64,000 nt of DNA, taken from positions 14,630-78,629 of the IMG/VR virus record IMGVR_UViG_3300032295_002421. One strand, 5' to 3'. The position numbers and the translations under genes are program-made. The notes below the pieces were generated by a model. It was not told the origin of the DNA, searched no databases, and saw only the letters and a list, made by a program, of their open reading frames with translations. Shown here in pieces: positions 1 through 38,735 of the stretch (its first letter is position 1; the number at the start of each line of letters is the position of its first letter). Source of the DNA: a virus. Taxonomy: Duplodnaviria; Caudoviricetes.

Positions 1-828
1 AAAAATTCTTTTTACATTATTACCATTCATAATAAACAAGATCTAATTCAAAAAGTTCTAGAAGGAGTAGTTAACTCCACAAAGGACTCAGAATACAAAG
101 TTAATATAATTTGTGTTTTAGATGGATGCACAGATAATTCTGAATCTATTATAGATGAATTTACTAAGACTATAGATCCTAGGTATGTAATCCATAAAAT
201 ATATCAAGATGATGTTCACGAATTATTGTCATTAAATGCCTCATTTAAGTACATAGAAACATTAGAACATTCGGAAGAAGATCTTATATTCTTACTCCAA
301 GATGATGTAATCTTACAAGAACCAGATCTAAATGAAATAATAGAATTACTATATAATCAAAATACAGAATTAGGATACGTTTCCTTTAGGTGTGGACTAC
401 TAACTAGTTTAGATCAACAAGGAGTTCTTTGTGAGCATTCATTTATAGAATCAACAGATGGACATTGGAAACAATTGAATCTAGATCATTTTATTGAAAT
501 GAATAATAAAGAGTTTGGCTTTATTGAGATTGTAATAAAAAGCCCAACATGCATAAAGAAAAAAGTTTTAGATAAGGTAGGATATTTTGATGAAAACCTA
601 GCTCCATTTGGCCATGACGATTTAGACTTATGTATAAGATTAAATAAACTAGGATATAAAAATGCCGTGTTTGGTGCAAGCTTCTCTAGTAAGTTAGATT
701 GGGGAGGTACTAGAGAGGAGAAAAACCAAGATAAAGAATATCATAAAAGTTATAATGAAATTATCTGGAGAAATAAAATATACTTAACAAATAAACACAG
801 AGATTATTATGAAGCTAAGCAAAAATAA
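1..828 (+). CDS. GT2-family glycosyltransferase (5' end at or just before window start)
   Basis: Frame is open from base 1 (KNSFYIITIHNKQDLI...VLDGCTDNS), in frame with ORF 226..828; QDDV DxD-like motif and GHDDLDLCIR acceptor motif. Confidence 0.8.
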   Translation, partial: KNSFYIITIHNKQDLIQKVLEGVVNSTKDSEYKVNIICVLDGCTDNSESIIDEFTKTIDPRYVIHKIYQDDVHELLSLNASFKYIETLEHSEEDLIFLLQDDVILQEPDLNEIIELLYNQNTELGYVSFRCGLLTSLDQQGVLCEHSFIESTDGHWKQLNLDHFIEMNNKEFGFIEIVIKSPTCIKKKVLDKVGYFDENLAPFGHDDLDLCIRLNKLGYKNAVFGASFSSKLDWGGTREEKNQDKEYHKSYNEIIWRNKIYLTNKHRDYYEAKQK

Positions 829-1567
829 ATTACATGAAGATTTTATAAAGTATTCTAAAGATTGGATAGATACAGTTGAAAATAATTCCTCAGTGTATGA
901 CTATTTTGAGAAGCAAGTAAATGATTATGACAGTTTATTTAACCACACAGAAATTGTTGCTAAGTATAAACTAGGATATGGAGAGAAAGCTTTTCGATAT
1001 TTGTGGGCATTAGTTTTTTCTCAAATGCCAAAAGAAGGAAAGTTTCTAGAGATCGGAGTATTTAAAGGATCTATATTAGCTTTATCTCAGCTCGTATCAA
1101 AAGAATTAGAACTGAACATATCAACATATGGATTAACACCCTTAAATAATACAGGAGATAAATACTCTGTGTATGATATAGATAACTATGAGTATGCCAT
1201 TTCATTTCTCTATCATAATTTAGGACTAACTATAGATAATACATTTATTATAGAAGGACTATCTACAGATGAAAATGCTAAGAATGGTGCTAAAGAGAAT
1301 GGACCGTATGATGTTGTTTATATAGATGGTGGTCATGACTATGAAACAGTTGTAAGTGACATTGATTTATCCACAGAGATACTAAAACCAGGTGGATTGT
1401 TAGTCATGGATGATGCATCTAGCTTATTAAACTTAGGTCCTAATCATAAAGGGTTTGCGGGCCACTTAGACGTAGGTCTTGCAATCAGAGATCATATCGA
1501 TACTAAAGATATCTACAAACATTTATTTGCTTGTGGACACAACAGAGTTTGGATTAAAAATAAATAG
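809..1567 (+). CDS. Class I SAM-dependent methyltransferase (Methyltransf_24-like)
   Basis: FLEIGVFKGS motif I; YIDGGHDYETVVSD...LKPGGLLVMDD. Confidence 0.85.
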   Translation: MKLSKNKLHEDFIKYSKDWIDTVENNSSVYDYFEKQVNDYDSLFNHTEIVAKYKLGYGEKAFRYLWALVFSQMPKEGKFLEIGVFKGSILALSQLVSKELELNISTYGLTPLNNTGDKYSVYDIDNYEYAISFLYHNLGLTIDNTFIIEGLSTDENAKNGAKENGPYDVVYIDGGHDYETVVSDIDLSTEILKPGGLLVMDDASSLLNLGPNHKGFAGHLDVGLAIRDHIDTKDIYKHLFACGHNRVWIKNK

Positions 1568-1568
1568 A

Positions 1569-2537
1569 ATGAATTATATAGTTGTAACGTCAATTAATGG
1601 AGTAACTGAAGCCATAAAAAAGTTTAGTAAGATAGATGATTGGAAAGTAGTTGTGGTTGGAGATTTAAAAAGCGTTACTTATCAACACGAGAATGTAAAA
1701 TTTTTAACAGTACAAGAACAACAAGACTTAGGCTTCAATATATTTAATACTACACCTTACAACCATTACTCAAGAAAAAACATTGGATATATATATTCAA
1801 TTGGTCAAGGAGCTGAATATGTATATGATACTGATGACGATACTATTCCATATAAAAACTGGGGTATAAAAGATTTTAAATGTGATAAAGCAATATTAGG
1901 AGATAAGTACATTAATCCATTTAGTTTTTTTACAGATCAAAATGTGTGGCCTAGAGGATATCATTTACCTTATATTAATAAAATACAACAATATACAAAA
2001 GAAGATGGAGATTATAATGTCGGAGTATGGCAAGGAATTATAGATGGTGATTCTGACTTTGATGCTATATATAGACTTATAATAAATAAACATATTAAGT
2101 TTAATGATCATGAAGATATTGTAATCTCTCCTAATTCATATTCTCCATTTAATACTCAAAGTACTTTATGGAATAAAAAACTTTATAGTTTAATGTATAT
2201 ACCTATAACTGTTGACTTTAGATTTACAGATATTTTAAGAGGCTACATTGCTCAAAGAATAATGTGGGATCATGGATATAGATTAGGGTTTCATTCTCCA
2301 AATACTTATCAAATTAGGAATGCTCATGACTACTATAAAGATTTTCTTGGAGAAATATCAATGTATCAAAACATTCCTAAAGTAGTTGAATTATTAGATC
2401 AAATAAAATTGCCTAATGATTCTATAGAAAAAGATTTGTTACTAATATATTCATCTTTAGAAAATAAAAATATTGTTAGTAAATTAGAAATAGAAAATTT
2501 AAATAATTGGATAAAAGATATAAATAGTTTAAAATGA
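1569..2537 (+). CDS. STELLO-like (DUF288) glycosyltransferase
   Basis: YIVVTSIN, VVVVGDLKS, PYNHYSRKNIGY, YDTDDD, WPRGY, DFDAIYRL, FRFTDILRGY motifs; start reset to ATG 1569. Confidence 0.7.
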   Translation: MNYIVVTSINGVTEAIKKFSKIDDWKVVVVGDLKSVTYQHENVKFLTVQEQQDLGFNIFNTTPYNHYSRKNIGYIYSIGQGAEYVYDTDDDTIPYKNWGIKDFKCDKAILGDKYINPFSFFTDQNVWPRGYHLPYINKIQQYTKEDGDYNVGVWQGIIDGDSDFDAIYRLIINKHIKFNDHEDIVISPNSYSPFNTQSTLWNKKLYSLMYIPITVDFRFTDILRGYIAQRIMWDHGYRLGFHSPNTYQIRNAHDYYKDFLGEISMYQNIPKVVELLDQIKLPNDSIEKDLLLIYSSLENKNIVSKLEIENLNNWIKDINSLK

Positions 2538-3490
2538 TAAAAGTAGTTTATGTAACAGGATGTTTAGGATTTATAGGATCTTATGTAACTAGGGCTTGTT
2601 TAGAAAAAGGTTGGTATGTAAGAGGCATAGATAAGTGTACTTATGCATCCAATGAAGATCTTTTATCTGAATTCACAAAAAAATATCCTGATAGATTTTC
2701 TTTTGAAAAAATAGATATTAATGACATGAAGTTTCTTTATGAGTGTGATTATATTATAAACACAGCAGCAGAAACCCATGTTGGAAATTCTATAGTAAGT
2801 AGTGATGAGTTCATACATTCTAATATAGATGGAGTTCATAATTTATTAGAGCTAATTAAAAACTATAGATTAGAATCTAATAGAAAACCTACTCTTCTGC
2901 ACTTTTCAACAGATGAAGTTTATGGAGATATAGATAAAGGTACACATACAGAAGCCGATTTATTAAAACCATCTAATCCATATTCAGCAACAAAAGCTGC
3001 AGCAGATATGTTAATACTTGCTTGGGCTAGAACATATAACCTACCCTATGTTATTGTTAGACCAACCAATAATTATGGAATTGGACAGTATGTAGAAAAG
3101 TTAATTCCTAAGTCTTGTAAAATGTTGCACTTAGGAAAAAAGATATCGTTACATAATAACGGAACTCCTATAAGAAATTGGCTTCATGCAGCAGATACTG
3201 CCAAAGCAGTAATAACAATTATAGAGTCTGGCGTTCAAAATGAAATTTATAATATAGCCGGGGGATTTGAACAATCAAATTATGACACTGTAAAGAAAGT
3301 TATAAAAGAATTTAATGGATCTGATTATATTGAAAAATATCTAGATCTATCTTATTCCAGAATAGGGCAGGACATTAGATACGCATTAGATGATTCTAAA
3401 TTAAAAAATTTAGGTTGGAAACCTACTATGAAGTTTGATGAAGAAATTTCAAAAATAATTGATTATTATAGAAATAGGTTTATATGGTAA
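2534..3490 (+). CDS. rmlB: dTDP-glucose 4,6-dehydratase
   Basis: TGCLGFIGS, AAETHV, STDEVYG, YSATK, NNYG, GQDIRYALD: classic RmlB motifs. Confidence 0.85.
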   Translation: MIKVVYVTGCLGFIGSYVTRACLEKGWYVRGIDKCTYASNEDLLSEFTKKYPDRFSFEKIDINDMKFLYECDYIINTAAETHVGNSIVSSDEFIHSNIDGVHNLLELIKNYRLESNRKPTLLHFSTDEVYGDIDKGTHTEADLLKPSNPYSATKAAADMLILAWARTYNLPYVIVRPTNNYGIGQYVEKLIPKSCKMLHLGKKISLHNNGTPIRNWLHAADTAKAVITIIESGVQNEIYNIAGGFEQSNYDTVKKVIKEFNGSDYIEKYLDLSYSRIGQDIRYALDDSKLKNLGWKPTMKFDEEISKIIDYYRNRFIW

Positions 3491-3520
3491 ATAATATTCA
3501 AATATAAATAAAATACACGT

Positions 3521-4180
3521 ATGATAACACTAGATGAATTAGCGAACAAGCATAACACAGATAAAGGAACAAAATATGGACATGTAACGGTTCATGGATA
3601 TGCTCCAATATATGAAAATTACCTATCTAAATGGAAAGATAAATCTATTAGACTTTTAGAAGTAGGAATCTGCATGGAGCATACAACAGGAGGACATTCA
3701 GTAAGAATGTGGCATGAGTATTTTAAAAATGCTTCTATCTATACTTTTGATATAGCGGATATGAAACATTTAGAAACAGAATTAGGAAATAGAGTTAAAT
3801 TTTATAAAGGAGATCAGAGTGTTAGATCAGATTTTGAAAACATGTATAAAGAATTTGGTTCTGAAAACTTTGATTTTATTTTAGAAGACGGTTCACATAT
3901 ACACCAACATCAGATAATATCATTTGGCCATTTATTTAAATACGTTAAACCTGGAGGTTATTACATATTAGAAGATGTAACTGAAGAAGGATATCCAGTT
4001 TGCTGTATAAGAAATGATGAAACATTTAAATTCATAAAAAAATTAAAAAATGAAAATATAGTTGAATCTGAATGGTTAACTAAAGAAGAATCAGAATATC
4101 TACAAAAAAATATTAAACAAATAGATATTCATGAAGATATACAAAACGCTTATAGAACTATAATCATACACAAAAAATAA
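3521..4180 (+). CDS. Sugar O-methyltransferase (MycE/TylE-like class I)
   Basis: HNTDK..HGY..IYE, LLEVGI, SVRMWHEYF, ILEDGSH, KPGGYYILED. Confidence 0.75.
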   Translation: MITLDELANKHNTDKGTKYGHVTVHGYAPIYENYLSKWKDKSIRLLEVGICMEHTTGGHSVRMWHEYFKNASIYTFDIADMKHLETELGNRVKFYKGDQSVRSDFENMYKEFGSENFDFILEDGSHIHQHQIISFGHLFKYVKPGGYYILEDVTEEGYPVCCIRNDETFKFIKKLKNENIVESEWLTKEESEYLQKNIKQIDIHEDIQNAYRTIIIHKK

Positions 4181-4183
4181 TTT

Positions 4184-4984
4184 ATGAATACTAGAGAATT
4201 TAAATGTTCAAAGATACTAACTGATCTTGTAGAGAACGACGGCCTAATAGGAATTAAGACAAGCTTTGAAGATGAAGGAGCTACATTTAATGAAACAATT
4301 AGATTAAAAGAAGTTTGCAATCAATCAAAAGTCAAACTCAATCTTAAAATAGGAGGGCCAGAAGCTATAAGAGATATGAAAGATTTATCAATTATAGGAG
4401 TGAAAGGCGTAGTTGCTCCTATGGTAGAATCAGGATTTGCATTAAAAAAGTTTGTAGACTCGATCAATAAAACCCTCCCCCAGGATATTATATCATCATT
4501 GCAACTCTTTATTAATGTAGAAACAAAACAAGCAGTGGAAAACATAGATTCTATTCTATCTATGAAAGAAGCAGATACATTGTATGCTATTACAGTAGGT
4601 AGAGTTGATTTAGTTTCTTCAATGGGAAAAGATAGATCTTATGTAAATAGTAATGAGGTTTTTGAAATGACAAAATCAGTATTTACTAAAGTAAAAGAAA
4701 AAGGATTAAAAGCTTGTCTAGGTGGAGCGGTATCTGTAGAGTCATTAGAGTTTCTTAAAAAACTAAATTCAGAAAGGTTATTAGATAAATTTGAAACTAG
4801 ATATGCAATATTTGATCCATCAATAACGCTTAAGAATTTATCTAGGGCGCTATCTAAAGCGCAGATGTTTGAATATGAATGGTTGATGGCAAAGCATGAA
4901 TATTATACTATGAATGCTAATTATGATCTCAATAGAATTAAAATGATTCAAGATAGAATTAATCAATCTATAGACTTTAAATAA
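4184..4984 (+). CDS. HpcH/HpaI aldolase / citrate-lyase-like protein
   Basis: KIGGPEAIRD, GVVAPMVES, INVET, ITVGRVDL. Confidence 0.75.
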   Translation: MNTREFKCSKILTDLVENDGLIGIKTSFEDEGATFNETIRLKEVCNQSKVKLNLKIGGPEAIRDMKDLSIIGVKGVVAPMVESGFALKKFVDSINKTLPQDIISSLQLFINVETKQAVENIDSILSMKEADTLYAITVGRVDLVSSMGKDRSYVNSNEVFEMTKSVFTKVKEKGLKACLGGAVSVESLEFLKKLNSERLLDKFETRYAIFDPSITLKNLSRALSKAQMFEYEWLMAKHEYYTMNANYDLNRIKMIQDRINQSIDFK

Positions 4985-5616
4985 TGAAAGTATTAGTTAC
5001 AGGATCATCTAAAGGAATAGGAAAAAGAATAGATACCTTATTTAGTATTAATGGCCATGATGTGTATGCTCCTAATAGAGATGAACTAGATCTATCTAAA
5101 GACTTTAATTTAAACAGAACTGACTTTGATGTTGTTATAAATAATGCAGGGATAAATCCTTTGAATACTATTAGAGACATGGACCAAGAATTGGTCATGA
5201 GAGTAAACTACTATTCTCCTTTAAAAATAATCCAGCAGTGTTTACCATATATGATAAATCAAAAGTGTGGTCATATTATAAACATAGGTTCTATATGGTC
5301 TAATATAGCAAAGGAAAAGAGAGCGGCATATTCTGCAAGTAAGTCTGCTTTAGAATCACTAGCAAGATCAATAACATCAGAATACGGAAAGTATGGTATA
5401 TTAGCAAATACAGTATCTCCTGGTTTTATTTTAACTGATCTTACAAAACAAAATAATACAGAAGATCAGATAAAAGACTTAGAGAAAAATATACCGCTTA
5501 ATAAATTAGGAACAGTTAATGATATAGCTAGTTTCGTTTATTTTTTAGCCACTCAAAATTCATACATAACAGGACAAAATATAATAATTGATGGAGGTTA
5601 TTCATGCGTAGCTTAA
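4984..5616 (+). CDS. Short-chain dehydrogenase/reductase (FabG-like)
   Basis: TGSSKGIG, NNAG, YSASK catalytic motif, VSPGFI, ITGQNIIIDGG. Confidence 0.9.
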   Translation: MKVLVTGSSKGIGKRIDTLFSINGHDVYAPNRDELDLSKDFNLNRTDFDVVINNAGINPLNTIRDMDQELVMRVNYYSPLKIIQQCLPYMINQKCGHIINIGSIWSNIAKEKRAAYSASKSALESLARSITSEYGKYGILANTVSPGFILTDLTKQNNTEDQIKDLEKNIPLNKLGTVNDIASFVYFLATQNSYITGQNIIIDGGYSCVA

Positions 5617-6632
5617 ATATAAAATCTAAGTTTGGACAGTACTCTGTTAAATTCTATAATCAAGTTTCTGATATACAAGAATTTATACAGGACGGTATTG
5701 TAATTGTGGATTCTAAAGTCTATGAATTATATAAAGATTATCTTCCTGTAGATTCTATTTTATTTGATTGCATTGAACAAAATAAAACTTTAGACGGATC
5801 TGTAACCATATTCAGAGAGTTAATAAAAAGAAAAATAAAATCTAATGGTAAAGTAATTGCTATAGGAGGAGGAATACTTCAAGATGTGGTTGGATTCGTA
5901 TGTTCAACATATTGTAGAGGAATACAATATGATCTAGTTCCGACTACTCTATTATCTCAATGTGATAGTTGTATAGGCGGCAAAACATCTATAAATTTTG
6001 AATCAGTAAAAAATATATTAGGTACATTCTATCCTCCTAATAATATATTAATATGCCCAGAATTTATTAAGACTCTTACAAATGAAGATCAATTGAGTGG
6101 AATGGGAGAGTTAATTAAATTTAACATCTTAAAAAACACAATAGGTAATATAAAAAATAATATTGATTTAATTAGTATGATATATGATGGACTTTCATAT
6201 AAAGCATCAATCATACAAATAGATGAGTTTGATAAGAAAGAAAGAAAATTTTTAAACTTTGGTCATACTTTTGGTCACGCTTTAGAATCTACTTCTGACT
6301 ATAATATTCCTCATGGAACTGCAGTTTTGTTTGGTATATTAATAGCAAATAAAGTATCTAATTTTTTAGGACTCTTAAGTTTAAATAAAGAATCAGAATT
6401 ATTTGATTTAATTTACCCATATATAAAACATCAAAAAATAGAAGAGGATTGGTTTAATTTTGACAATCTTATTTCTATTATAAAACATGACAAGAAAAAT
6501 ACAGGCACTATAAATATGGTTCTATTGACAGATAAAGATCCTAAAATAGTTCCTATAGAATCAGAAGAAAAATTACAGTTAGCACTAAAAAATATTTATG
6601 CGTCTATCAGATTATGTAATAAAATATCTTAA
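5604..6632 (+). CDS. 3-dehydroquinate synthase-like sugar-phosphate cyclase
   Basis: GGGILQD, RG..PTTLLSQCDSCIGGKT, KN..G.F.PP, LNFGHTFGHALE, HGTAV, DKK all intact. Confidence 0.85.
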   Translation: MRSLNIKSKFGQYSVKFYNQVSDIQEFIQDGIVIVDSKVYELYKDYLPVDSILFDCIEQNKTLDGSVTIFRELIKRKIKSNGKVIAIGGGILQDVVGFVCSTYCRGIQYDLVPTTLLSQCDSCIGGKTSINFESVKNILGTFYPPNNILICPEFIKTLTNEDQLSGMGELIKFNILKNTIGNIKNNIDLISMIYDGLSYKASIIQIDEFDKKERKFLNFGHTFGHALESTSDYNIPHGTAVLFGILIANKVSNFLGLLSLNKESELFDLIYPYIKHQKIEEDWFNFDNLISIIKHDKKNTGTINMVLLTDKDPKIVPIESEEKLQLALKNIYASIRLCNKIS

Positions 6633-8340
6633 AGATAATTACCAAGTAGATACAGTATTCACAGTCTCAGGTGGTGGTTGTATATTCTTAGTGGACTCCC
6701 TAACCAATATAGAGGGGGTTAATTATATAGCTACGCATCACGAACAAGCAGCAGCCATTGCAGCAGAAGGGTATTCTAGAATGCATAATAAATTAGGAGC
6801 GTGTGTAGTTACTAGTGGTCCTGGTGGAACTAATGCTATTACAGGTGTATTAGGAGCTTGGTTAGATTCTATTCCTATAATAGTGATTAGCGGTCAAGTA
6901 AATAAGGAAATGACTACTAATTACAACAATCTATATAACCTAAGACAATTAGGAGATCAAGAGTTTAATATAGTCGAGTCTGTAAAGAATATGACAAAGT
7001 ATGCAGCACAAGTCAATAATCCAGAAGATATAAAATACCATTTAGATACTGCATGTAAACTAGCAACCTCACAAAGACCAGGACCTGTATGGTTAGATAT
7101 ACCACTGAATGTCCAATCGACGAATATAAATCCAGATGAGTTAATAGGCAATGATTCAGTAGAAGATACAGAACAGGTTAAGTGTCCTGATAGTATATTA
7201 GATAAAGTTGCAGAAGAATTGAACAAGTCTAAAAAACCACTCTTAATAGTTGGTAATGGAGTTAGACTTTCAAGTGGTGTAGATCAACTTAAAAAGTTTA
7301 TTAGTAAAATAAAAATACCTGTCATATCTTCAGTAAATGGAAATGATCTGATTAATGACGATTATGAAGGATATGCTGGCAGATTTGGAACTCATGCACA
7401 AATATGTGCAAACAATCTTATATCTGAAGCAGACCTTATTTTATCTGTGGGTTCTAGATTATATGTAAGACAAACAGGTTACAATTTTAAAGGGTTTGCA
7501 GAGAATGCGTGTAAGATATATGTGGATGTAGATATTAATGAACTAAATAAACCAACGTTATATCCAGATATTGCTATACATTCAGATGCTAAGTTCTTTT
7601 TAGAACAAATGATAGATAAAGATATAAATACTATAGATAAAGAATGGTTAGATTATTGTTCTAATAAGTATAAAGAAACACCAACTGTTTTACAAAGACA
7701 TAGAAACAAGAAAGATTTTGTTAGTCACTATCATTTTGTAGAAACTTTAGGATCTCTATTAAAACCAACAGACCATGTAGTTACAAGTGACGGTACAGCA
7801 AATGTTGCGACCATGCAAGTATTAAAACTTAAAGGAGATCAGAGACTAATAACAAATACAGGAAATGCTCCTATGGGTTATGGTCTTCCTGCGGCAATTG
7901 GTGCGGCATCAACAAAAATACCTGTAGTTTGTATAGAAGGAGATGGAAGTTTACATTTAAATGTACACGAACTACAAACAGTTAAACATTATAATTTACC
8001 AATAAAGATAATTCTATTTAATAATGATGGATATACATCTATAAAGATATCACAAAAAGCTTTCTTTAATGGTAAGTTTGTAGCATCAGAAAAGAATAGC
8101 GGTGTTTCATTCCCTAATTTTAAAAAGCTTATTAATGCTTATGATCTTAAATATATGTCTATAGAAAATCATAGTTTGATGAAAGATATTTTAAAACAAT
8201 TTCTTTCTTTGGAAGGTCCTGCAGTATTAGAAGTGTTTACCGATCCTGAAGAATTCCACGAACCTAAAGTTGTTGCTAAGTTAGGATCCGATGGTAAATT
8301 TATTCCTGGTAATTTACAAGATATAAAATGGATACAATGA
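6598..8340 (+). CDS. ThDP-dependent acetolactate-synthase-like enzyme (YerE-like)
   Basis: HHEQAAAIAAEGY, TSGPGGTN, RPGPVWLDIP, MGYGLPAAIG, EGDGSL...NN ThDP motif. Confidence 0.9.
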   Translation: MRLSDYVIKYLKDNYQVDTVFTVSGGGCIFLVDSLTNIEGVNYIATHHEQAAAIAAEGYSRMHNKLGACVVTSGPGGTNAITGVLGAWLDSIPIIVISGQVNKEMTTNYNNLYNLRQLGDQEFNIVESVKNMTKYAAQVNNPEDIKYHLDTACKLATSQRPGPVWLDIPLNVQSTNINPDELIGNDSVEDTEQVKCPDSILDKVAEELNKSKKPLLIVGNGVRLSSGVDQLKKFISKIKIPVISSVNGNDLINDDYEGYAGRFGTHAQICANNLISEADLILSVGSRLYVRQTGYNFKGFAENACKIYVDVDINELNKPTLYPDIAIHSDAKFFLEQMIDKDINTIDKEWLDYCSNKYKETPTVLQRHRNKKDFVSHYHFVETLGSLLKPTDHVVTSDGTANVATMQVLKLKGDQRLITNTGNAPMGYGLPAAIGAASTKIPVVCIEGDGSLHLNVHELQTVKHYNLPIKIILFNNDGYTSIKISQKAFFNGKFVASEKNSGVSFPNFKKLINAYDLKYMSIENHSLMKDILKQFLSLEGPAVLEVFTDPEEFHEPKVVAKLGSDGKFIPGNLQDIKWIQ

Positions 8341-9116
8341 AAATATTAATAACAGGAGCTAATGGATATATAGGAAATTCTTTATATAGATCTTTAAAAG
8401 ATTTACATGAAGTTTCTACTATAACTAGAGAAAATTGTGATTTAACAGATCAAAATAGTGTTAATTTATATTTTAAAAATAAATGGTTTGATGTAGTTAT
8501 ACACTGTGCAGTATCTGGAGGTAACAGATTAAAACCAGAAAACTCTCAAGTTATAGACTCTAATCTAATGATGTACTATAATTTATTATACAATAAAAAA
8601 TGTTTTAATAAATTAATACATTTTGGATCAGGAGCTGAATTTCATAGATGGTGGACTCCATATGGTTTAAGTAAAAAATTAATAAGCTCATCAATATCTG
8701 GCCAAGATAATTTTTATAACTTAATAATATATGGATTATTTGATGAATTTGAATTAGATAGAAGATTTATTAAGTCTAATTTAAAAAGGTATATAAATAA
8801 AGAACCAATGCAAATAGATGATAATAACTATATGGATTTTTTTTATATGCAAGACTTAATACAAGTAGTAAATTATTGCATAGAAAATGAAAGTCCTCCA
8901 AAATATATAAATTGCGTTTATAAAGAAAATTTAACCTTAAAAAATATAGCCGATTTTATAAATACCTTAAATGATTATAAAGTAGACATAAAAATAAATG
9001 GATCGGAATTTCCAATTGAAGGGTATACTAGTTTTAATAAAGATTTAAAATTACCATTTGTAGGACTTCAACAAGGAATAATAAACACGTATAATAAATT
9101 AAAATGGAACCAATAA
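8337..9116 (+). CDS. NAD-dependent epimerase/dehydratase
   Basis: MKILITGANGYIG, HCA..GG, GSGAEF, YGLSK; ATGA overlap with upstream stop. Confidence 0.85.
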   Translation: MKILITGANGYIGNSLYRSLKDLHEVSTITRENCDLTDQNSVNLYFKNKWFDVVIHCAVSGGNRLKPENSQVIDSNLMMYYNLLYNKKCFNKLIHFGSGAEFHRWWTPYGLSKKLISSSISGQDNFYNLIIYGLFDEFELDRRFIKSNLKRYINKEPMQIDDNNYMDFFYMQDLIQVVNYCIENESPPKYINCVYKENLTLKNIADFINTLNDYKVDIKINGSEFPIEGYTSFNKDLKLPFVGLQQGIINTYNKLKWNQ

Positions 9117-10387
9117 GTTTTATAACAAACACAGGAGCTAACACTTTAGAATATACTAAATTACTATTAGAATCTTTAAAAATTAATTTAGTTGGTAAAG
9201 AACATGAGATTATAGTTTTTATAGATAAAGATAATGATGGAACATATCAATATCTTAAAAGTATTAAAAAAGATTTTTACGATTTAAAAATAGTAACACA
9301 TAAACTTAAAGGGCCAGTAGGATATCAAAGGAACTCCAATCTTCTTGTTGATATAGCTAAACATAATATAGTTAGTTATCTTCAAAGTGATATGGTTATA
9401 TCACCAAATTATGATATAGACATACTATCTGAAATAGAAGATGATTGTATAATAAGTTCAACTAGAGTAGAACCACCACTTCATGGTCCATCTAATGTTG
9501 TAATAATAAAAGATTTTGGCGTAGATCCTTTACAATTCAATATAGAAGATTGGAATTCATATTCTATTACTGTAAAGGAAAATAAAGTAGCTGAATACTT
9601 TTTTGCTCCATATACTTTTTATAAAAAAACATGGCAAAAGATCGGAGGCTATGATACTATATTTAGAAGATCTAGAGAGGATTCAGATTTTGTACAAAGA
9701 TGTGTTCAATCTGGAATAAAGTTAAAACAAACATTTAAACCAGTTGTTTATCATTTTACTTGTGTAAGTTCTAGAGGAAAAAATTGGTTTGATGAAAACA
9801 ATAAAGAAGCAAAAGAAAGAGTAGAATTACAAAAAATTGCAGACGGAATAGAGATAAGAAGATTCTTAAAAAAATGGGGAGGTTTTAATCATGGAGAAAG
9901 TAAGTTAAAAAAATTAGATATAGATCTTGTAGTAAAAGACAATAAACAATTAAACCCAATGTTCTTAGCTCAATTAGAAGTTTATTGTTCTAGAGTATGG
10001 TTGAAATCAAAAGAAGAGGTGGATGTTTTAATTCAAATCCTAAGTAACGAACAAGATCCAGCTAATACACTTTTAGGATATACTAATGAAGGTTGGGAAG
10101 AAGCTAAACACTTATTTAGAACTACAGACTTTAAGTCTATTTATAGAGTTGGACAACCTGTAGATTTTAATATAAAAATAGAAGTAAACTTTGAAAATAT
10201 AGATCCATCTAAAGATGAATTCATACAAAATATAACGCGTTTAAGTGACATTCTGGAAGGTTCTGAACCTGGAATATATGAACTAGGATCCGCCAAAATA
10301 GAGATCAGAAATATGGTAGATTTAACCCAGGAGCAAATTATAGTTAATAATCCAAAATTTGATTTTTCACTTTTAAATATAGAATAA
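9104..10387 (+). CDS. GT2-family glycosyltransferase
   Basis: HEIIVFIDKDNDGT, LQSDM, GGYD.IF...REDSDF, VYHF. Confidence 0.8.
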   Translation: MEPISFITNTGANTLEYTKLLLESLKINLVGKEHEIIVFIDKDNDGTYQYLKSIKKDFYDLKIVTHKLKGPVGYQRNSNLLVDIAKHNIVSYLQSDMVISPNYDIDILSEIEDDCIISSTRVEPPLHGPSNVVIIKDFGVDPLQFNIEDWNSYSITVKENKVAEYFFAPYTFYKKTWQKIGGYDTIFRRSREDSDFVQRCVQSGIKLKQTFKPVVYHFTCVSSRGKNWFDENNKEAKERVELQKIADGIEIRRFLKKWGGFNHGESKLKKLDIDLVVKDNKQLNPMFLAQLEVYCSRVWLKSKEEVDVLIQILSNEQDPANTLLGYTNEGWEEAKHLFRTTDFKSIYRVGQPVDFNIKIEVNFENIDPSKDEFIQNITRLSDILEGSEPGIYELGSAKIEIRNMVDLTQEQIIVNNPKFDFSLLNIE

Positions 10388-10989
10388 TGACAGCAAAATA
10401 TTCAGTAGATTGGTTTAGTAATAATATTCCTATATGGGATCAGATATTTACGGAATTTAAGATTAAAGGTTCTGATAATTTAAGATTTTTAGAAATAGGA
10501 TGTTTTGAAGGTAGATCAACAAATTATTTACTAGATAATATTTTAACAGGAAATAATTGTACTATAGACGTAATTGATACATTTGGAGGATCTATTAATG
10601 AAGCGGGTATGAATTTTGATGTATCTTTTAATTTTAGTACTTTATATGAAACATTTGTTAAAAATACAGAACCTCATAAAGAAAAAATCAATATTCATGT
10701 TGGATATTCTGGAGATGTTTTAAGAAAATCTTTCAAGAAAAATTATTTTGATTTTATATACATAGATGGATCTCATACAGCCCCGGATGTATTACAAGAT
10801 GCTGTGCTTTGTCATGATTTATTAAAGTCAAAAGGTATTTTAATATTCGATGATTTTGGATGGAAAGATCCTAGTAATCTTGATCCAACAAATAGTCCGG
10901 AATTAGCAATTGCTTGTTTTTTAAATTGTCATAATAATAACTATGGTATGATAACCCAAGGGTATCAAATAGCAGTTATGAAAAAATAA
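10387..10989 (+). CDS. Class I SAM-dependent methyltransferase (Methyltransf_24-like)
   Basis: FLEIGCFEGRS; FDFIYIDGSH; GILIFDDF. Confidence 0.85.
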   Translation: MTAKYSVDWFSNNIPIWDQIFTEFKIKGSDNLRFLEIGCFEGRSTNYLLDNILTGNNCTIDVIDTFGGSINEAGMNFDVSFNFSTLYETFVKNTEPHKEKINIHVGYSGDVLRKSFKKNYFDFIYIDGSHTAPDVLQDAVLCHDLLKSKGILIFDDFGWKDPSNLDPTNSPELAIACFLNCHNNNYGMITQGYQIAVMKK

Positions 10990-11018: not shown

Positions 11019-11333
11019 ATGGCAAAAGCGGCTAATCCATTATTTAATATAACTGTAGCAGGAAAGAAATATAAACTCAGGTTTGATGTCAATGATAATC
11101 CAACTAAACTTGGAGTTAAAATGCAGTTTGTAATTGACCAAGAATTTGAAGATCCTAGAGACAAACAAATGTTGGCTAATGAAATTAGTGTAGCACTGCA
11201 AAAGAAACTTGGGGCTTCTGGGGTTATGGTTGATTATGATGATCGTAATCCATACAAAAACGTAATAGGCTTTATAGTGCCTTTAAATTCTGTGGCTATG
11301 TTATTAATTAAAGCCATGAAAGGAGGAGCATAA
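11019..11333 (+). CDS. Hypothetical phage protein
   Basis: 104-aa ORF with late-promoter motif upstream. Confidence 0.7.
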   Translation: MAKAANPLFNITVAGKKYKLRFDVNDNPTKLGVKMQFVIDQEFEDPRDKQMLANEISVALQKKLGASGVMVDYDDRNPYKNVIGFIVPLNSVAMLLIKAMKGGA

Positions 11334-11350
11334 AATAAAATAAATTAGTT

Positions 11351-11707
11351 ATGGTAAGAAGAAGAGTTGTCAGGGCTTTATTTGATAATCCTGAATACCT
11401 TACAGCAGAAGATGTTTCTCAGTCTGAAATACTTAAATCTTTATTGAAAATACATATACCTAATTCTATAGAGTATGCTATAGTTAATAAGAAGATTTAT
11501 GCTTGTTTGTTTGAGATAAATGAAACTAATGAATACGTAGAGATCCATAAAAACCATTGGGTTCAGGCTTTAGAAACCTGTTTACTATGGTATATTGAAG
11601 AAGAGAATTATGAAATGTGTACTCATATTAAAAATATAATTCAATCAATTCAAGATAAGAATAAGGCCAGAAAATTTACAACTAAAACTAAAGCCAGTGG
11701 AGAATGA
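11351..11707 (+). CDS. Hypothetical protein with C-terminal UVR-like motif
   Basis: IEEENYEMCTHIKNII resembles the UvrB/C coiled motif. Confidence 0.55.
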   Translation: MVRRRVVRALFDNPEYLTAEDVSQSEILKSLLKIHIPNSIEYAIVNKKIYACLFEINETNEYVEIHKNHWVQALETCLLWYIEEENYEMCTHIKNIIQSIQDKNKARKFTTKTKASGE

Positions 11708-12104
11708 TTTTAAACAAATTCAATTAGGAGTAAACTCTATAATTGGAACTAAGACTGTAATAAGAAGAAAGAAAAAGACTGAAGTAGATAAGAAAAGAGA
11801 ATTGTTTTTTAACATGATGAATAGTCTAGATGAATTAAACGTCAGACAAAATATTATGTATGCGGATCTTAACTTAGACTTTGCAGATTATGATGAGAAG
11901 TTCTTTACTGTTATAGATGCTCTTATCTATATGCACTTTGGTAAACAATGTACTGAGGTAATTAGTTTCTATTTGTATGAAAGAGTAAATAGTGATGGTA
12001 CATTAAATCCAATAATAGTTAATGACAAAGATGAATTAATACTTGAAAACCCATATGATCTTTGGCATTTAATGTGCAAACTAAATCCTAAATTAGATGC
12101 CTAA
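11697..12104 (+). CDS. Hypothetical phage protein
   Basis: 135-aa ORF overlapping both neighbours. Confidence 0.7.
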   Translation: MENDFKQIQLGVNSIIGTKTVIRRKKKTEVDKKRELFFNMMNSLDELNVRQNIMYADLNLDFADYDEKFFTVIDALIYMHFGKQCTEVISFYLYERVNSDGTLNPIIVNDKDELILENPYDLWHLMCKLNPKLDA

Positions 12105-37436: not shown

Positions 37437-38735
37437 TTAACATGGTACAGATGATACCGAAATTCCAGGACCAGGACCATAAGAGAAAGTATTATCTCTT
37501 ACACACGGCGTATTTACAGAACTAAATGTATTAACACTACCACCTGTTGAATTATTATTTTCACACAAATTACCAGTCCAAGACGTACCTGTACCTTGAG
37601 TTTCTATTGTATAAACTGAACATGTAGGTACTTCTGTAGTTGTTGTTGTTGTTGTGCTAGTAGTTGTCGTAGTAGTGGTTGTCGTAGTAGTAGTTGTTGT
37701 AGTAGTCGTAGTTTCAGATGCAGAAGCACTTACATAATAAGATTTACCTGAAGCTGCTGTAAATGTATAAGAATTTACTGTTGCAGGTATTGATCCAGGG
37801 GTTGATATATTATTATGTAAAACTGTAGAATCAGTTAGATTTTCTATATATAATCTATAAGAACCCAATGTACCACCTTGACTATTTTGTTGTGAATATA
37901 TAGAACTTCCTGCAGAAGCTATAAAACTATTATTTTCTGTGGAGAACGATGATACTACATTTGTACCATCATCATTTATTAATAAGTCAGAATCTACATA
38001 AGGACTAGCTAATTCTGTATTTGCCCAAAATATAGTAGCTGGTACTTCTGTTGTAGTAGTAGTCGTTGTACTAGTTGTTGTTGTAGTCGGCGCTGCTGTA
38101 GTTGTTGTAGTTGTGGTACTAGTTGTTGTTGTACTAGTTGTTGTTGTAGTCGGCGCCGCCGTAGTTGTTGTAGTCGTTGTACTAGTTGTAGTTGTGGTCG
38201 TAGTAGAATCTATTATAGCGTTTCTATAATCTAAATTAGTTATTACAACTATACCTTGATTATATAAAATATTTCCTACATGTATATTAAGATTATCTGT
38301 ATCTATAATATTTCCATTACCATCATCTATAATATTATAAGTTAATCCTGTTAAATTAAAACTCTTTCTACTTATATTTTCTCCAAATACAGTTCTTGGT
38401 ATAGATATAACAGTTATTTCATCGCTAGATGATATTGGAAAATATCTAAAATCATTATCAAAAGTACCTTCTGCTGCTGTTGATTGAAGATTATCATTCC
38501 ATGCACTAGCTGAATTATCTAAATTTCCTGTAATATAAGAATTATAATATAATTGTTGTGCTAGTTTGTATACAAGAAATTCAGTTTTGTTTACATTAAA
38601 AGATCCATTAATTCCTCTATTAACAGTTATTCCACTATTAATAACAGAAGAACTAAAGTAAGATGCAGAGTATTTTAACTTTATAGGATAAGTAGAAATA
38701 TCTGACCTATCAAGAGTATTTTTTGATGATCCCAT
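37437..38735 (-). CDS. Baseplate/tail protein N-terminal half fused to mucin-like Thr-rich repeats, a beta-rich module and a Cys-containing tip
   Basis: VISIPR..FGE and VGNILYNQGIVVIT align with 38759..39790; two poly-Thr tracts each ending EVP. Confidence 0.75.
   Translation of the reverse strand: MGSSKNTLDRSDISTYPIKLKYSASYFSSSVINSGITVNRGINGSFNVNKTEFLVYKLAQQLYYNSYITGNLDNSASAWNDNLQSTAAEGTFDNDFRYFPISSSDEITVISIPRTVFGENISRKSFNLTGLTYNIIDDGNGNIIDTDNLNIHVGNILYNQGIVVITNLDYRNAIIDSTTTTTTTSTTTTTTTAAPTTTTTSTTTTSTTTTTTTAAPTTTTTSTTTTTTTEVPATIFWANTELASPYVDSDLLINDDGTNVVSSFSTENNSFIASAGSSIYSQQNSQGGTLGSYRLYIENLTDSTVLHNNISTPGSIPATVNSYTFTAASGKSYYVSASASETTTTTTTTTTTTTTTTTTSTTTTTTTEVPTCSVYTIETQGTGTSWTGNLCENNNSTGGSVNTFSSVNTPCVRDNTFSYGPGPGISVSSVPC
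37635..37712 (-). repeat. Poly-Thr coding repeat (second tract)
   Basis: ACN codon run. Confidence 0.9.
38049..38204 (-). repeat. Thr/Ser/Ala-Ala-Pro mucin-like coding repeat (first tract)
   Basis: Two TTTTTAAPTTTTTS units within a poly-Thr run. Confidence 0.9.

What the first reader, a model, noticed from the sequence alone, without database searches (positions are those of the whole stretch)
4184..9116. Aldolase-SDR-sugar-phosphate cyclase-ThDP enzyme-epimerase block: candidate pathway to a branched or carbocyclic sugar
Seen: five contiguous genes with intact catalytic motifs and no other shikimate (aroD/E/K) or branched-chain amino acid (ilvC/D) genes in the window. Known: YerE-type ThDP enzymes add a two-carbon unit to NDP-4-keto-6-deoxy sugars (yersiniose), RmlB supplies such keto-sugars, and DHQS-superfamily members cyclise sugar phosphates to cyclitols (EEVS, DOIS). 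Inference: the block builds a higher-carbon C-branched and possibly carbocyclic monosaccharide (caryophyllose/caryose-like chemistry). I know of no such pathway described for a phage.
Basis: partly seen in the sequence, partly recalled or inferred. Interest (0 to 1): 0.7.

Follow-up and report, generated by a model that had tools for sequence, protein, structure and literature searches.

The report
Phage pathway for long-branched sugar
A large Flavobacterium-type phage carries an intact, conserved gene set that most likely builds a rare sugar with a long carbon side chain (caryophyllose type), a bacterial pathway type already outlined in the literature but not reported from a cultured phage, and its "dehydroquinate synthase" probably trims a phosphate to a methyl end and does not build a carbon ring.

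Summary
The five genes are real, intact, overlapping and under purifying selection. They are not shikimate or branched-chain amino-acid genes. They form a modular cassette found in at least 577 bacterial loci and at least 136 uncultured viral contigs.

- **Core:** an HpcH-type pyruvate aldolase and a YerE/JanthE-like ThDP carboligase, usually with a YerF-like reductase. In cells they sit beside the CDP-4-keto-3,6-dideoxyglucose genes rfbF/G/H.
- **Published match:** this is the "unifying scheme" for acyl-branched sugars such as erwiniose and caryophyllose (Steitz et al. 2022).
- **SDR + AroB-like pair (TIGR04425 clade):** an optional module. It never co-occurs with a HAD phosphatase that takes the same slot beside near-identical aldolase and ThDP genes. 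Mycobacterium loci with the caryophyllose-type gene order also carry it.

Best reading: the aldolase makes a DAHP-like 7-phosphate, the AroB-like enzyme eliminates the phosphate, and the SDR reduces the resulting ketone. That gives a methyl-ended keto acid, which the ThDP enzyme grafts onto the RmlB product. A carbocyclic product is not excluded but is disfavoured.

Phage-specific features are an RmlB-type acceptor with no 3-deoxygenation genes in the window, soluble glycosyltransferases, and three methyltransferases.

This scan has met the same cassette about 33 times on other DNA. The phage setting is the new part.

The parts
1..828 (+). GT2-family glycosyltransferase (5' end runs off the window). 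Variable flank of the glycan operon.
   Evidence: Pfam Glycos_transf_2. No homologue in related viral loci. No hydrophobic segment.
809..1567 (+). SAM methyltransferase (Methyltransf_24), variable flank.
   Evidence: Pfam PF13578, E 9e-12.
1479..2537 (+). STELLO-like glycosyltransferase, variable flank.
   Evidence: Pfam PF03385, E 2e-12, on the C-terminal 100 residues.
2534..3490 (+). RmlB-type NDP-glucose 4,6-dehydratase. Inferred supplier of the NDP-4-keto-6-deoxyhexose acceptor.
   Evidence: TIGR01181 at 296 bits (cut-off 365), against CDP-glucose dehydratase at 69 bits. GxxGxxG, TDE and YSATK present. 71-91% identical and adjacent in viral relatives.
3521..4180 (+). SAM methyltransferase (Methyltransf_24; PHROG 21658). 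Probable sugar O-methylation.
   Evidence: Present in 24 of 80 viral loci.
4184..4984 (+). HpcH/HpaI-type class II pyruvate aldolase of a distinct subfamily. Inferred to make the 2-keto-3-deoxy acid donor, probably from pyruvate and erythrose 4-phosphate.
   Evidence: PF03328 at 49.5 bits. AlphaFold model pLDDT 96; best folds are HpaI, HpcH and YfaU. The two acidic residues E113 and D142 align with those of YfaU. Adjacent to the ThDP gene in 67 of 80 cellular loci.
4984..5616 (+). Short classical SDR, obligate partner of the AroB-like gene. Inferred ketoreductase acting on its product.
   Evidence: adh_short_C2, E 1e-39. Motifs. Found immediately upstream of the AroB-like gene in all 43 cellular loci that carry the pair, and present together with it in 56 viral loci.
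5604..6632 (+). AroB paralogue of the TIGR04425 clade. Inferred phosphate-eliminating lyase acting on a DAHP-like intermediate; whether it also cyclises is unresolved.
   Evidence: TIGR04425 at 341.5 bits against aroB at 251. It falls in a clade with cassette copies, separated from 7 housekeeping aroB at 99% SH-aLRT. All DHQS catalytic positions are kept. Mutually exclusive with HAD.
6598..8340 (+). YerE/JanthE-like ThDP carboligase. Inferred to join the decarboxylated keto acid to C4 of the keto-sugar.
   Evidence: PDB 8RPH (JanthE) at 349 bits, against 252 bits or less for acetolactate synthases. All NCBIfam acetolactate-synthase models score below cut-off. GDGS/NNDGY and HEQ present.
8328..9116 (+). 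RmlD-like extended SDR. Inferred YerF-type reductase of the branch carbonyl (or a 4-ketoreductase).
   Evidence: PF01370 and PF04321. Weak PDB matches to dTDP-4-dehydrorhamnose reductases. YGLSK present. Next to the ThDP gene in 41 of 80 cellular and 56 of 80 viral loci.
9104..10387 (+). GT2-family glycosyltransferase, soluble, conserved with the cassette in the phage group. Candidate transferase for the branched sugar.
   Evidence: PF00535. 53-94% identical in close viral relatives. Maximum hydropathy 0.77, so no membrane segment.
10387..10989 (+). Third Methyltransf_24 methyltransferase; last gene of the operon.
   Evidence: PF13578, E 3e-17.
37437..38735 (-). Threonine-rich structural-module protein. 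Only a candidate acceptor of the sugar (inference, not shown).
Evidence: 78% Thr over 40 residues. Lies among baseplate genes.

Best explanation
The block is the phage version of the caryophyllose-type "acyl-branched sugar" pathway. All steps below are inferred.

1. The HpcH-type aldolase condenses pyruvate with a phosphorylated aldose, most likely erythrose 4-phosphate. This gives a DAHP-like 3-deoxy-heptulosonate 7-phosphate.
2. The AroB paralogue uses dehydroquinate-synthase chemistry (transient NAD+ oxidation, then beta-elimination of phosphate) to remove the 7-phosphate.
3. Its obligate SDR partner reduces the resulting 6-ketone, leaving a methyl-ended 3,7-dideoxy-heptulosonate.
4. The YerE/JanthE-like ThDP enzyme decarboxylates this keto acid and adds the C6 acyl unit to C4 of the NDP-4-keto-6-deoxyhexose made by the adjacent RmlB-type dehydratase.
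5. The RmlD-like reductase reduces the branch carbonyl.
6. The flanking methyltransferases and soluble glycosyltransferases decorate and transfer the sugar.

The predicted product is an NDP-6-deoxy-4-C-(tetrahydroxyhexyl)hexose. That is caryophyllose with the 3-OH retained, because no rfbH was found in the window.

Shown here: gene identities, clade membership, synteny, modularity and selection.
Inferred: substrates, order of steps, non-cyclisation, and the acceptor of the glycosyl transfer (host envelope glycan, or the phage's own threonine-rich fibre).
For: Family and clade identity:
- ThDP enzyme: JanthE is the best solved relative, at 349 bits against 252 or less for acetolactate synthases.
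- HpcH-like protein: fold and acidic ligands of class II pyruvate aldolases.
- AroB-like protein: sits in the cassette clade apart from housekeeping aroB at 99% support. Four of five cassette genomes also keep a true aroB. Cellular cassette copies pass the TIGR04425 cut-off.

Context in 80 cellular loci:
- ThDP gene next to the aldolase in 67.
- The reductase in 41.
- rfbF, CDP-glucose dehydratase and rfbH (722 bits) in about 40.
- GtrB-like GT2 and GtrA also present.
- These are the published ingredients of the scheme (PMC9306805).

Role of the SDR/AroB-like pair:
- All DAHP-binding and catalytic positions of DHQS are kept, which points to a DAHP-like substrate.
- The pair (43 loci) and a HAD-IIA phosphatase (12 loci) never co-occur (Fisher p = 3e-5) and interleave on the aldolase tree.
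- HAD-type locus L071 and pair-type locus L068 share 96% (aldolase), 92% (ThDP), 88% (reductase) and 90% (GT) identity. The two donors must therefore be close analogues, consistent with OH-ended versus deoxy-ended chains.
- Three Mycobacterium-genus loci have GT, ThDP, aldolase, SDR and AroB-like genes in that order, next to rfbF/rfbH. The first three match the published order MMAR_2333-2331.
- Caryophyllose carries an acyclic 1,3,4,5-tetrahydroxyhexyl chain with a methyl end (PMC5706390).

Phage side:
- Intact motifs and overlapping genes.
- dN/dS of 0.06-0.36.
- Of the best 80 viral loci, 56 carry both the SDR/AroB-like pair and the reductase, and 2 carry HAD without AroB-like.
Against: - No enzyme of this cassette subfamily (aldolase, SDR, AroB-like) has been assayed. 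TIGR04425 is itself only a hypothetical equivalog.
- All characterised DHQS-superfamily sugar-phosphate enzymes cyclise. In DHQS the steps after phosphate loss are thought to be largely spontaneous (my recollection of the Knowles/Bartlett work). The fully conserved active site therefore argues as much for cyclisation as against it.
- The window protein scores below the TIGR04425 cut-off (341.5 against 400) and RmlB scores below its own (296 against 365).
- The tool hides species names, so the Mycobacterium loci could not be tied to M. marinum.
- No paper I could search mentions a DHQS-like gene in the caryophyllose cluster.
- "Plain" cassettes with neither HAD nor the pair exist, so the aldolase may not always use a phosphorylated aldehyde.
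- The nucleotide carrier, the stereochemistry and the glycosylation target are unknown. No nucleotidyltransferase was found in four related viral records.
Confidence: 0.6

Rival explanations
1. Carbocyclic product. The AroB-like enzyme cyclises the DAHP-like aldol product to a dehydroquinate-like cyclitol, the SDR reduces the ring ketone, and the carbocycle ends up in or on the sugar (caryose- or bradyrhizose-like chemistry).
For: All catalytic and substrate-binding positions of DHQS are conserved. Every characterised member of the DHQS sugar-phosphate family cyclises (established knowledge, from memory). NCBI's name for TIGR04425 says "cyclizing".
Against: - Dehydroquinate is not a 2-keto acid, so it could not serve as ThDP donor. 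The cassettes already encode an NDP-keto-sugar acceptor.
- The pair is swapped with a plain HAD phosphatase beside 92-96% identical ThDP and aldolase genes.
- The pair occurs in Mycobacterium loci of the caryophyllose type, and that sugar is acyclic.
- There is no kinase or nucleotidyltransferase to activate a cyclitol.
Confidence: 0.15
2. Same end product, different order. The AroB-like enzyme and SDR act before the aldolase. They turn a sugar phosphate such as erythrose 4-phosphate into a 4-deoxy-tetrose, the aldehyde "28" assumed by Steitz et al., which the aldolase then joins to pyruvate. In the other cassettes HAD would likewise free the aldehyde.
For: It fits the published scheme, in which the aldolase takes pyruvate plus a deoxy-aldehyde. 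It also explains the HAD/pair exclusivity.
Against: The carboxylate-binding Lys/Arg and the full DAHP pocket are conserved, which is unexpected for a four-carbon substrate without a carboxylate. That variant would place it after chain assembly.
Confidence: 0.15
3. Auxiliary metabolic genes for amino acids. The ThDP enzyme is an acetolactate synthase and the AroB-like enzyme a dehydroquinate synthase that boost host valine/leucine and aromatic amino-acid synthesis. This is how the prasinovirus homologues are described.
For: Name-level annotation, e.g. JGI "3-dehydroquinate synthase". The prasinovirus literature reads such genes this way (PMC5371798).
Against: - Both proteins score below the curated cut-offs of aroB and of every acetolactate-synthase model.
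- The AroB-like protein lies in a clade separate from housekeeping aroB.
- The ThDP enzyme is nearest to a YerE-like carboligase.
- There is no small AHAS subunit and no ilvC/D or aroD/E/K among the annotated neighbours.
- The genes are fixed in an operon with a sugar dehydratase, glycosyltransferases and methyltransferases.
Confidence: 0.03

Closest known systems
Caryophyllose genes of the Mycobacterium marinum LOS locus (MMAR_2331 aldolase/citrate-lyase family, MMAR_2332 ThDP carboligase, MMAR_2333 glycosyltransferase) and the "unifying scheme" for acyl-branched sugars (Steitz et al. 2022, PMC9306805)
   Same: - Aldolase-made hydroxy-2-keto acid donor, YerE-like ThDP coupling to an NDP-4-keto-deoxyhexose, reductase, methyltransferase and glycosyltransferase.
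- Mycobacterium-genus loci found here have the order GT, ThDP, aldolase, SDR, AroB-like. Their proteins are 32-45% identical to representatives of the cellular cassettes, which are in turn about 35-45% identical to the phage proteins.
   Different: - The phage uses an RmlB-type dehydratase, and no rfbF, rfbH or E3-type reductase is visible in the window. The 3-OH is therefore probably retained.
- It has soluble glycosyltransferases and no GtrA/GtrB-type lipid-carrier step.
- The published scheme assigns no role to the SDR/AroB-like pair and assumes a ready-made deoxy-aldehyde.
Yersiniose A pathway: YerE (ThDP) and YerF (reductase) of Yersinia pseudotuberculosis
   Same: ThDP-dependent acyl-anion addition to C4 of an NDP-4-keto sugar, followed by NAD(P)H reduction of the branch carbonyl.
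   Different: YerE uses pyruvate (a C2 branch) and needs no aldolase, SDR or AroB-like enzyme. Its acceptor is CDP-3,6-dideoxy-4-keto-glucose.
JanthE of Janthinobacterium sp. HH01 (PDB 8RPH/8RPI/8RPJ)
   Same: Closest solved relative of the ThDP enzyme (E 4e-103 over residues 12-576). It is a YerE-like aldehyde-ketone carboligase that accepts long and 4-hydroxylated 2-keto acids (PMC12188165).
   Different: JanthE has a CDG ThDP motif, whereas the phage enzyme has the canonical GDG. JanthE's physiological substrates are unknown.
3-Dehydroquinate synthase AroB (TIGR01357) and the DHQS-like sugar-phosphate cyclases (EEVS, DDGS, DOIS)
   Same: Same fold and the same catalytic, Zn, phosphate and carboxylate positions as AroB. 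The chemistry of phosphate elimination is presumably shared.
   Different: - It is a separate clade, below the aroB cut-off, and coexists with a true aroB.
- It is always paired with an SDR inside a sugar cassette.
- It is much closer to AroB than to DOIS, EEVS or DDGS (92, 85 and 71 bits against 141).
Prasinovirus "3-dehydroquinate synthase" and "acetolactate synthase" gene cluster (OtV, OlV, MpV-1)
   Same: A virus-borne pair of the same two families. Giant-virus MAG contigs in IMG/VR carry aldolase + SDR + AroB-like + ThDP cassettes.
   Different: The literature reads these as amino-acid biosynthesis genes (PMC5371798). I did not compare cultured prasinovirus sequences directly. They are eukaryotic viruses, not phages.

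Membership tests
YerE-like ThDP carboligases (decarboxylase superfamily, sugar-branching) | ThDP-binding GDG...NN motif and catalytic Glu in the N-terminal PYR domain | tested here: met
   GDGS at 448, NNDGY at 475, HEQ at 48. Three TPP_enzyme domains.
YerE-like ThDP carboligases (decarboxylase superfamily, sugar-branching) | Closer to characterised YerE-like enzymes than to acetolactate synthases | tested here: met
   JanthE 8RPH at 349 bits. The next hit is 5AHK at 252 bits, then plant and bacterial AHAS at 223 or less. All NCBIfam AHAS models score far below cut-off.
YerE-like ThDP carboligases (decarboxylase superfamily, sugar-branching) | Encoded with genes for an NDP-4-keto-deoxyhexose and a branch reductase | tested here: met
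   RmlB-type dehydratase and RmlD-like reductase in the operon. rfbF/G/H beside cellular homologues.
YerE-like ThDP carboligases (decarboxylase superfamily, sugar-branching) | Catalyses keto-acid to ketone carboligation on an NDP-keto-sugar | not testable with these tools
   Needs an enzyme assay.
TIGR04425 (AroB-related putative sugar phosphate phospholyase) | Score at or above the curated cut-off of 400 bits | tested here: not met
   The window protein scores 341.5 bits. Cellular cassette copies L034 and L015 score 408.6 and 429.1.
TIGR04425 (AroB-related putative sugar phosphate phospholyase) | Falls in the cassette clade, separate from housekeeping aroB | tested here: met
   46 cassette and phage rows against 7 aroB rows, split supported at 99% SH-aLRT (quick IQ-TREE).
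TIGR04425 (AroB-related putative sugar phosphate phospholyase) | Conserved neighbourhood: SDR immediately upstream, HpcH-type aldolase and ThDP enzyme adjacent | tested here: met
   Window gene order. 43 of 80 cellular loci and 56 of 80 viral loci.
3-Dehydroquinate synthase AroB (TIGR01357) | Score at or above the cut-off (305 bits) and a role in the shikimate pathway | tested here: not met
   251 bits. Separate clade. Cassette genomes keep a distinct true aroB at 334-398 bits. No aroD/E/K among the annotated neighbours.
3-Dehydroquinate synthase AroB (TIGR01357) | Catalytic, Zn-, phosphate- and carboxylate-binding residues | tested here: met
   45 columns are identical across aroB, cassette and phage groups. 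They include D121, K127, N137, E169, K172, K200, R214, N218, H221, H225, H237 and K297/K298. Mapping these to published DHQS residue roles is from memory.
HpcH/HpaI class II pyruvate aldolases (PF03328) | Pfam gathering score, TIM-barrel fold and the two acidic metal ligands | tested here: met
   49.5 bits against a cut-off of 25. Model pLDDT 96.4; top folds are HpaI, HpcH and YfaU, with TM about 0.55-0.61 and probability 1.00. E113 and D142 are invariant in 50 homologues and align with the Glu and Asp of YfaU.
HpcH/HpaI class II pyruvate aldolases (PF03328) | Pyruvate-dependent aldol addition; identity of the aldehyde partner | not testable with these tools
   Erythrose 4-phosphate is inferred from the DAHP-type pocket of the partner enzyme and from the HAD alternative.
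dTDP-glucose 4,6-dehydratase RmlB (TIGR01181) | Curated cut-off (365 bits) and the catalytic TDE / YxxxK motifs | tested here: inconclusive
   296 bits, which is below cut-off but by far the best model. TDE at 126 and YSATK at 150 are present. Nucleotide specificity is unknown.

The most novel reading that the evidence does not exclude
The TIGR04425 AroB paralogue is a dehydroquinate-synthase derivative that stops after phosphate elimination. With its SDR it would be a two-enzyme "dephosphorylative deoxygenation" that turns a terminal CH2-O-phosphate into a methyl carbinol, an activity not described for this superfamily. The phage would use the resulting caryophyllose-like sugar to coat its own threonine-rich baseplate fibre. 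That would also re-explain the "amino-acid genes" of prasinoviruses as virion or host glycan genes.
Probability: 0.3. Interest if true: 0.7.

Novelty: new variant of a known kind. Interest (0 to 1): 0.45.

Why it matters
- **Re-annotation.** The finding moves a pair of viral genes usually annotated as dehydroquinate synthase and acetolactate synthase into a rare-sugar pathway.
- **Spread in viruses.** The pathway is widespread in uncultured phages and giant viruses, with at least 136 IMG/VR contigs.
- **A testable role for TIGR04425.** The family is large and has no assigned function. The comparative evidence (exclusivity with a phosphatase) gives it a concrete, testable role.
- **Biology and biocatalysis.** A long-branched, methylated sugar on a virion fibre or on the infected cell surface would bear on receptor masking, superinfection exclusion and phage-host recognition in Flavobacteria. 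The enzymes are also of interest for making tertiary-alcohol C-C bonds.
- **What is not new.** The pathway type itself is already published, and this scan has met the cassette repeatedly in bacteria.

Tried and rejected
Neighbourhoods were therefore rebuilt from fetched loci with my own ORF calling and clustering.
- **DNA search against GenBank phages:** no match for the block.
- **Single-protein scan of genome contigs** with the AroB-like protein found only one cassette locus (Granulicella). The other three hits were housekeeping aroB.
- **Literature:**
  - Nothing for "TIGR04425".
  - Nothing for dehydroquinate + acetolactate + HpcH + polysaccharide.
  - Nothing for caryophyllose + dehydroquinate.
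  - The original JanthE paper is not in the library.
  - The supplement of Steitz et al. is not held.
- **Species identity.** The link to M. marinum rests on gene order only.
- **Tree.** The careful tree search did not finish in the time allowed, so a quick IQ-TREE with SH-aLRT was used.
- **Nucleotidyltransferase (PF00483).** None was found in four related viral records, which are only about 30% complete.
- **Amino-acid-gene reading:** considered and rejected, see rivals.
- **DNA hypermodification.** I considered that the sugar might serve DNA hypermodification. Nothing in the operon points to it (no base-modifying enzyme was seen among the annotated ORFs), but it was not tested.
- **aro/ilv genes.** I did not scan the window exhaustively for them.

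Full report
**1. Observation**

Each overlaps the next by 1-35 nt. Pfam and NCBIfam give these assignments:
- an HpcH/HpaI aldolase (49.5 bits, cut-off 25);
- a short classical SDR;
- a dehydroquinate-synthase homologue, whose best model is TIGR04425 "AroB-related putative sugar phosphate phospholyase" (341.5 bits) rather than aroB (251 bits);
- a three-domain ThDP enzyme that stays far below the cut-off of every acetolactate-synthase model;
- an RmlD-like extended SDR.

The cofactor and catalytic motifs are all present.

The block lies inside a twelve-gene, one-strand operon at 1-10989 that also holds:
- an RmlB-type 4,6-dehydratase (2534-3490);
- three Methyltransf_24 methyltransferases;
- three glycosyltransferases.

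None of the twelve proteins has a membrane-like segment.

**2. The host element is a phage**
- The window holds a T4-type baseplate wedge gene, a primase and many small ORFs.
- The wedge protein is 46% identical to that of the 160-kb Flavobacterium phage vB_FspM_immuto.
- The window's own contig is 160,111 bp.
- Seven IMG/VR contigs found first keep RmlB, aldolase, SDR, AroB-like, ThDP and reductase in the same order at 47-100% identity, and six of them also keep GT2.
- dN/dS against two of these relatives is 0.06-0.36 for every gene (dS is near saturation, so the values are rough).

**3. What the cassette is**

An alignment of the aldolase subfamily recovered at least 577 bacterial loci across many phyla. 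In the best 80:
- the ThDP gene lies beside the aldolase in 67;
- the RmlD-like reductase is present in 41;
- the SDR and AroB-like genes are always an adjacent pair, present in 43.

The commonest further neighbours are:
- glucose-1-phosphate cytidylyltransferase (TIGR02623, above cut-off);
- CDP-glucose 4,6-dehydratase;
- RfbH, the 3-dehydrase (722 bits against a cut-off of 423);
- an E3-like flavin reductase;
- a GtrB-like GT2 and GtrA.

That is the route to CDP-4-keto-3,6-dideoxyglucose plus a lipid-carrier glycosylation step.

The closest solved relative of the ThDP enzyme is JanthE (PDB 8RPH, E 4e-103), a characterised YerE-like carboligase. It ranks ahead of all acetolactate synthases (PMC12188165).

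This is the gene content of the published "unifying scheme" for acyl-branched sugars (PMC9306805). In that scheme:
- a pyruvate aldolase makes a hydroxylated 2-keto acid;
- a YerE-like enzyme adds it to the 4-keto sugar;
- a reductase finishes the branch.

Examples include erwiniose, caryophyllose (M. marinum MMAR_2331 aldolase/citrate-lyase family, MMAR_2332 ThDP, MMAR_2333 GT) and a methylated analogue in Rhodopseudomonas palustris.

The aldolase assignment was checked by structure. The AlphaFold model has pLDDT 96.4. Its best PDB folds are the class II pyruvate aldolases HpaI, HpcH and YfaU. Two invariant acidic residues align with those of YfaU.

**4. The AroB-like enzyme is a paralogue, not the shikimate enzyme**
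- Cellular cassette copies pass the TIGR04425 cut-off (408.6 and 429.1 bits).
- In a tree of 53 sequences, the 46 cassette and phage copies separate from seven housekeeping aroB at 99% SH-aLRT. The phage copies form a subclade inside the cassette side (quick search only).
- Four of five cassette genomes also hold a true aroB at 334-398 bits.
- Every catalytic, zinc-, phosphate- and carboxylate-binding position shared by aroB is retained. Only six conservative positions differ consistently between the groups.
- I take this to mean that the substrate is a DAHP-like 3-deoxy-2-ulosonate with a terminal phosphate, not sedoheptulose 7-phosphate or glucose 6-phosphate. Consistent with that, DOIS, EEVS and DDGS are much weaker matches than AroB.

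**5. What the SDR/AroB-like pair does**

This is the part the literature I could search does not cover. Three observations bear on it.

- *Exclusivity with a phosphatase.*
  - A HAD-IIA phosphatase sits beside the aldolase in 12 of the 80 loci and never together with the pair (0 overlap; Fisher p = 3e-5).
  - HAD-type and pair-type loci interleave all over the aldolase tree, so the swap happened many times.
  - The same holds in viruses: two HAD loci, neither with AroB-like.
- *Near-identical partner enzymes.*
  - In Bacteroidales, HAD-type locus L071 and pair-type locus L068 share 96% (aldolase), 92% (ThDP), 88% (reductase) and 90% (GT) identity.
  - That is as close as two pair-type loci are to each other.
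  - Whatever the two modules deliver must therefore be close analogues handled by the same downstream enzymes.
- *Mycobacterium loci.*
  - Four of 300 sampled genomes of the genus that holds Mycobacterium paraffinicum carry the aldolase family.
  - The three loci I fetched read RfbH, RfbF, GT, ThDP, aldolase, SDR, AroB-like.
  - The GT, ThDP, aldolase order matches that published for MMAR_2333-2331.
  - Caryophyllose is 3,6-dideoxy-4-C-(1,3,4,5-tetrahydroxyhexyl)-hexose, an acyclic C6 chain with a 2'-methylene and a methyl end (PMC5706390).
  - That chain is what decarboxylative transfer of a 3,7-dideoxy-heptulosonate would give.

**6. Proposed mechanism**

Together these fit one mechanism. 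It is inferred, not shown.
1. Pyruvate + erythrose 4-phosphate give a DAHP-like acid.
2. In pair-type cassettes, DHQS-style oxidation and beta-elimination remove the phosphate, and the SDR reduces the resulting 6-ketone to leave a methyl carbinol.
3. In HAD-type cassettes, plain hydrolysis leaves a terminal hydroxyl instead.
4. ThDP coupling to the NDP-keto-sugar follows, then reduction of the branch carbonyl.

**7. Why a carbocycle is less likely, and what keeps it alive**

Against a carbocycle:
- Dehydroquinate is not a 2-keto acid, so it cannot be the ThDP donor.
- The cassettes already encode a keto-sugar acceptor.
- The HAD swap and the caryophyllose structure point to an open chain.

For a carbocycle:
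- All characterised DHQS-family sugar-phosphate enzymes cyclise.
- The late steps of DHQS are held to be nearly spontaneous (my recollection of the mechanistic literature).
- The active site here is unchanged.

I put the carbocycle at about 0.15. A variant in which the pair acts before the aldolase, making a 4-deoxy-tetrose from erythrose 4-phosphate, gets about the same. The amino-acid-gene reading gets about 0.03.

**8. What is particular to the phage**
- The window has an RmlB-type dehydratase (TIGR01181 at 296 bits against 69 for the CDP-glucose dehydratase model).
- It has no homologue of rfbF, rfbH, the flavin reductase, HAD, GtrA or GtrB. The predicted sugar therefore keeps its 3-OH and is transferred directly by soluble glycosyltransferases.
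- Many sister viral contigs do carry an RfbH-like gene upstream (52 of 80).
- No nucleotidyltransferase was found in four related, incomplete viral records. The host presumably supplies the NDP-glucose.
- The target of glycosylation is unknown. A structural-module protein at 37437-38735 has a run of 78% threonine.

**9. Novelty**

The pathway type is published, and this scan has already reported the same cassette in some 33 findings on other genomes, with the same reading of the AroB-like enzyme. I reached the deoxygenation idea before seeing those notes (note). I used them only as a lead to test Mycobacterium and giant-virus contigs.

In cultured phages the cassette is absent:
- no hit at all for the aldolase;
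- only hits of 37% identity or less, apparently host-derived, for the other two;
- no PHROG family for the aldolase or the AroB-like protein.

In IMG/VR it is frequent. There are at least 136 contigs. Of the best 80, 73 have the ThDP gene and 56 have the pair. Several are giant-virus MAGs.

Prasinovirus reviews list a viral "3-dehydroquinate synthase" and "acetolactate synthase" as amino-acid genes (PMC5371798). The giant-virus contigs seen here suggest those belong to this sugar cassette, but I did not compare cultured prasinovirus sequences.

**10. Verdict**

This is a real, selected, phage-borne variant of a known kind of pathway. The enzymology of the SDR/AroB-like pair remains the open and testable point.

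Noticed in passing
L298, L299, L304, L307, L309, L312 (IMG/VR GVMAG contigs): Giant-virus MAG contigs carry aldolase + SDR + AroB-like + ThDP cassettes at 25-46% identity to the phage proteins. This suggests that the prasinovirus "DHQS" and "acetolactate synthase" genes, read as amino-acid genes in the literature, belong to the same sugar pathway.
   Followed up: partly
L239-L241, L243-L249 and about 40 other viral loci, compared with window 1-3490: Most sister phage contigs have an RfbH-like 3-dehydrase (33-41% identical to cellular RfbH) upstream of the RmlB-like gene. The window and its closest relatives (L234-L238) have methyltransferases there and no RfbH. The phage group therefore seems to make both 3-deoxy and 3-hydroxy versions.
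   Followed up: partly
L242, L259, L266, L267, L269, L282, L283, L285 (viral loci without the SDR/AroB-like pair): In these pair-less phage cassettes the aldolase is still 67-75% identical to the window's, but the ThDP enzyme drops to 46-49%, against 59-94% in pair-containing relatives. The ThDP gene seems to have been exchanged together with the pair.
   Followed up: no
L234-L237, compared with window 8328-9116: The reductase is 100% identical in protein sequence to the window's, while its flanking genes in the same contigs are only 87-97% identical. This hints at recent recombination within the operon.
   Followed up: no
L018 (11.6-kb contig binned as a Terrimicrobiaceae MAG): The whole contig looks like the phage cassette (RmlB 77%, aldolase 71%, ThDP 64% identical to the window). 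It is probably a phage contig mis-binned into a bacterial MAG, or a prophage.
   Followed up: no
L020, L022, L026, L065, L091 (and a partial second copy in L057): Some bacterial cassettes carry two tandem, diverged copies of the aldolase (about 47-52% identical to each other where measured, L020 and L022), with either the pair or HAD.
   Followed up: no
window 11019-12849: Four small or medium ORFs without any Pfam match (104, 118, 135 and 250 aa) follow the operon. They are co-conserved with it in the close viral relatives at 50-95% identity. Their function is unknown.
   Followed up: no
It is a possible acceptor for the operon's sugar.
   Followed up: partly
L232:8014-9761: In one Mycobacterium-genus genome the ThDP gene matches in two adjoining tblastn pieces (8014-9477 and 9483-9761). 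This may be a frameshift or just an alignment break.
   Followed up: no
L021, L025, L028, L038, L040, L066, L084, L088: A third cassette flavour adds a TylC3-like sugar C-methyltransferase to the aldolase and ThDP genes, and in most of these loci a radical-SAM enzyme as well, with no SDR/AroB-like pair. This implies further branched-sugar diversity.
   Followed up: no
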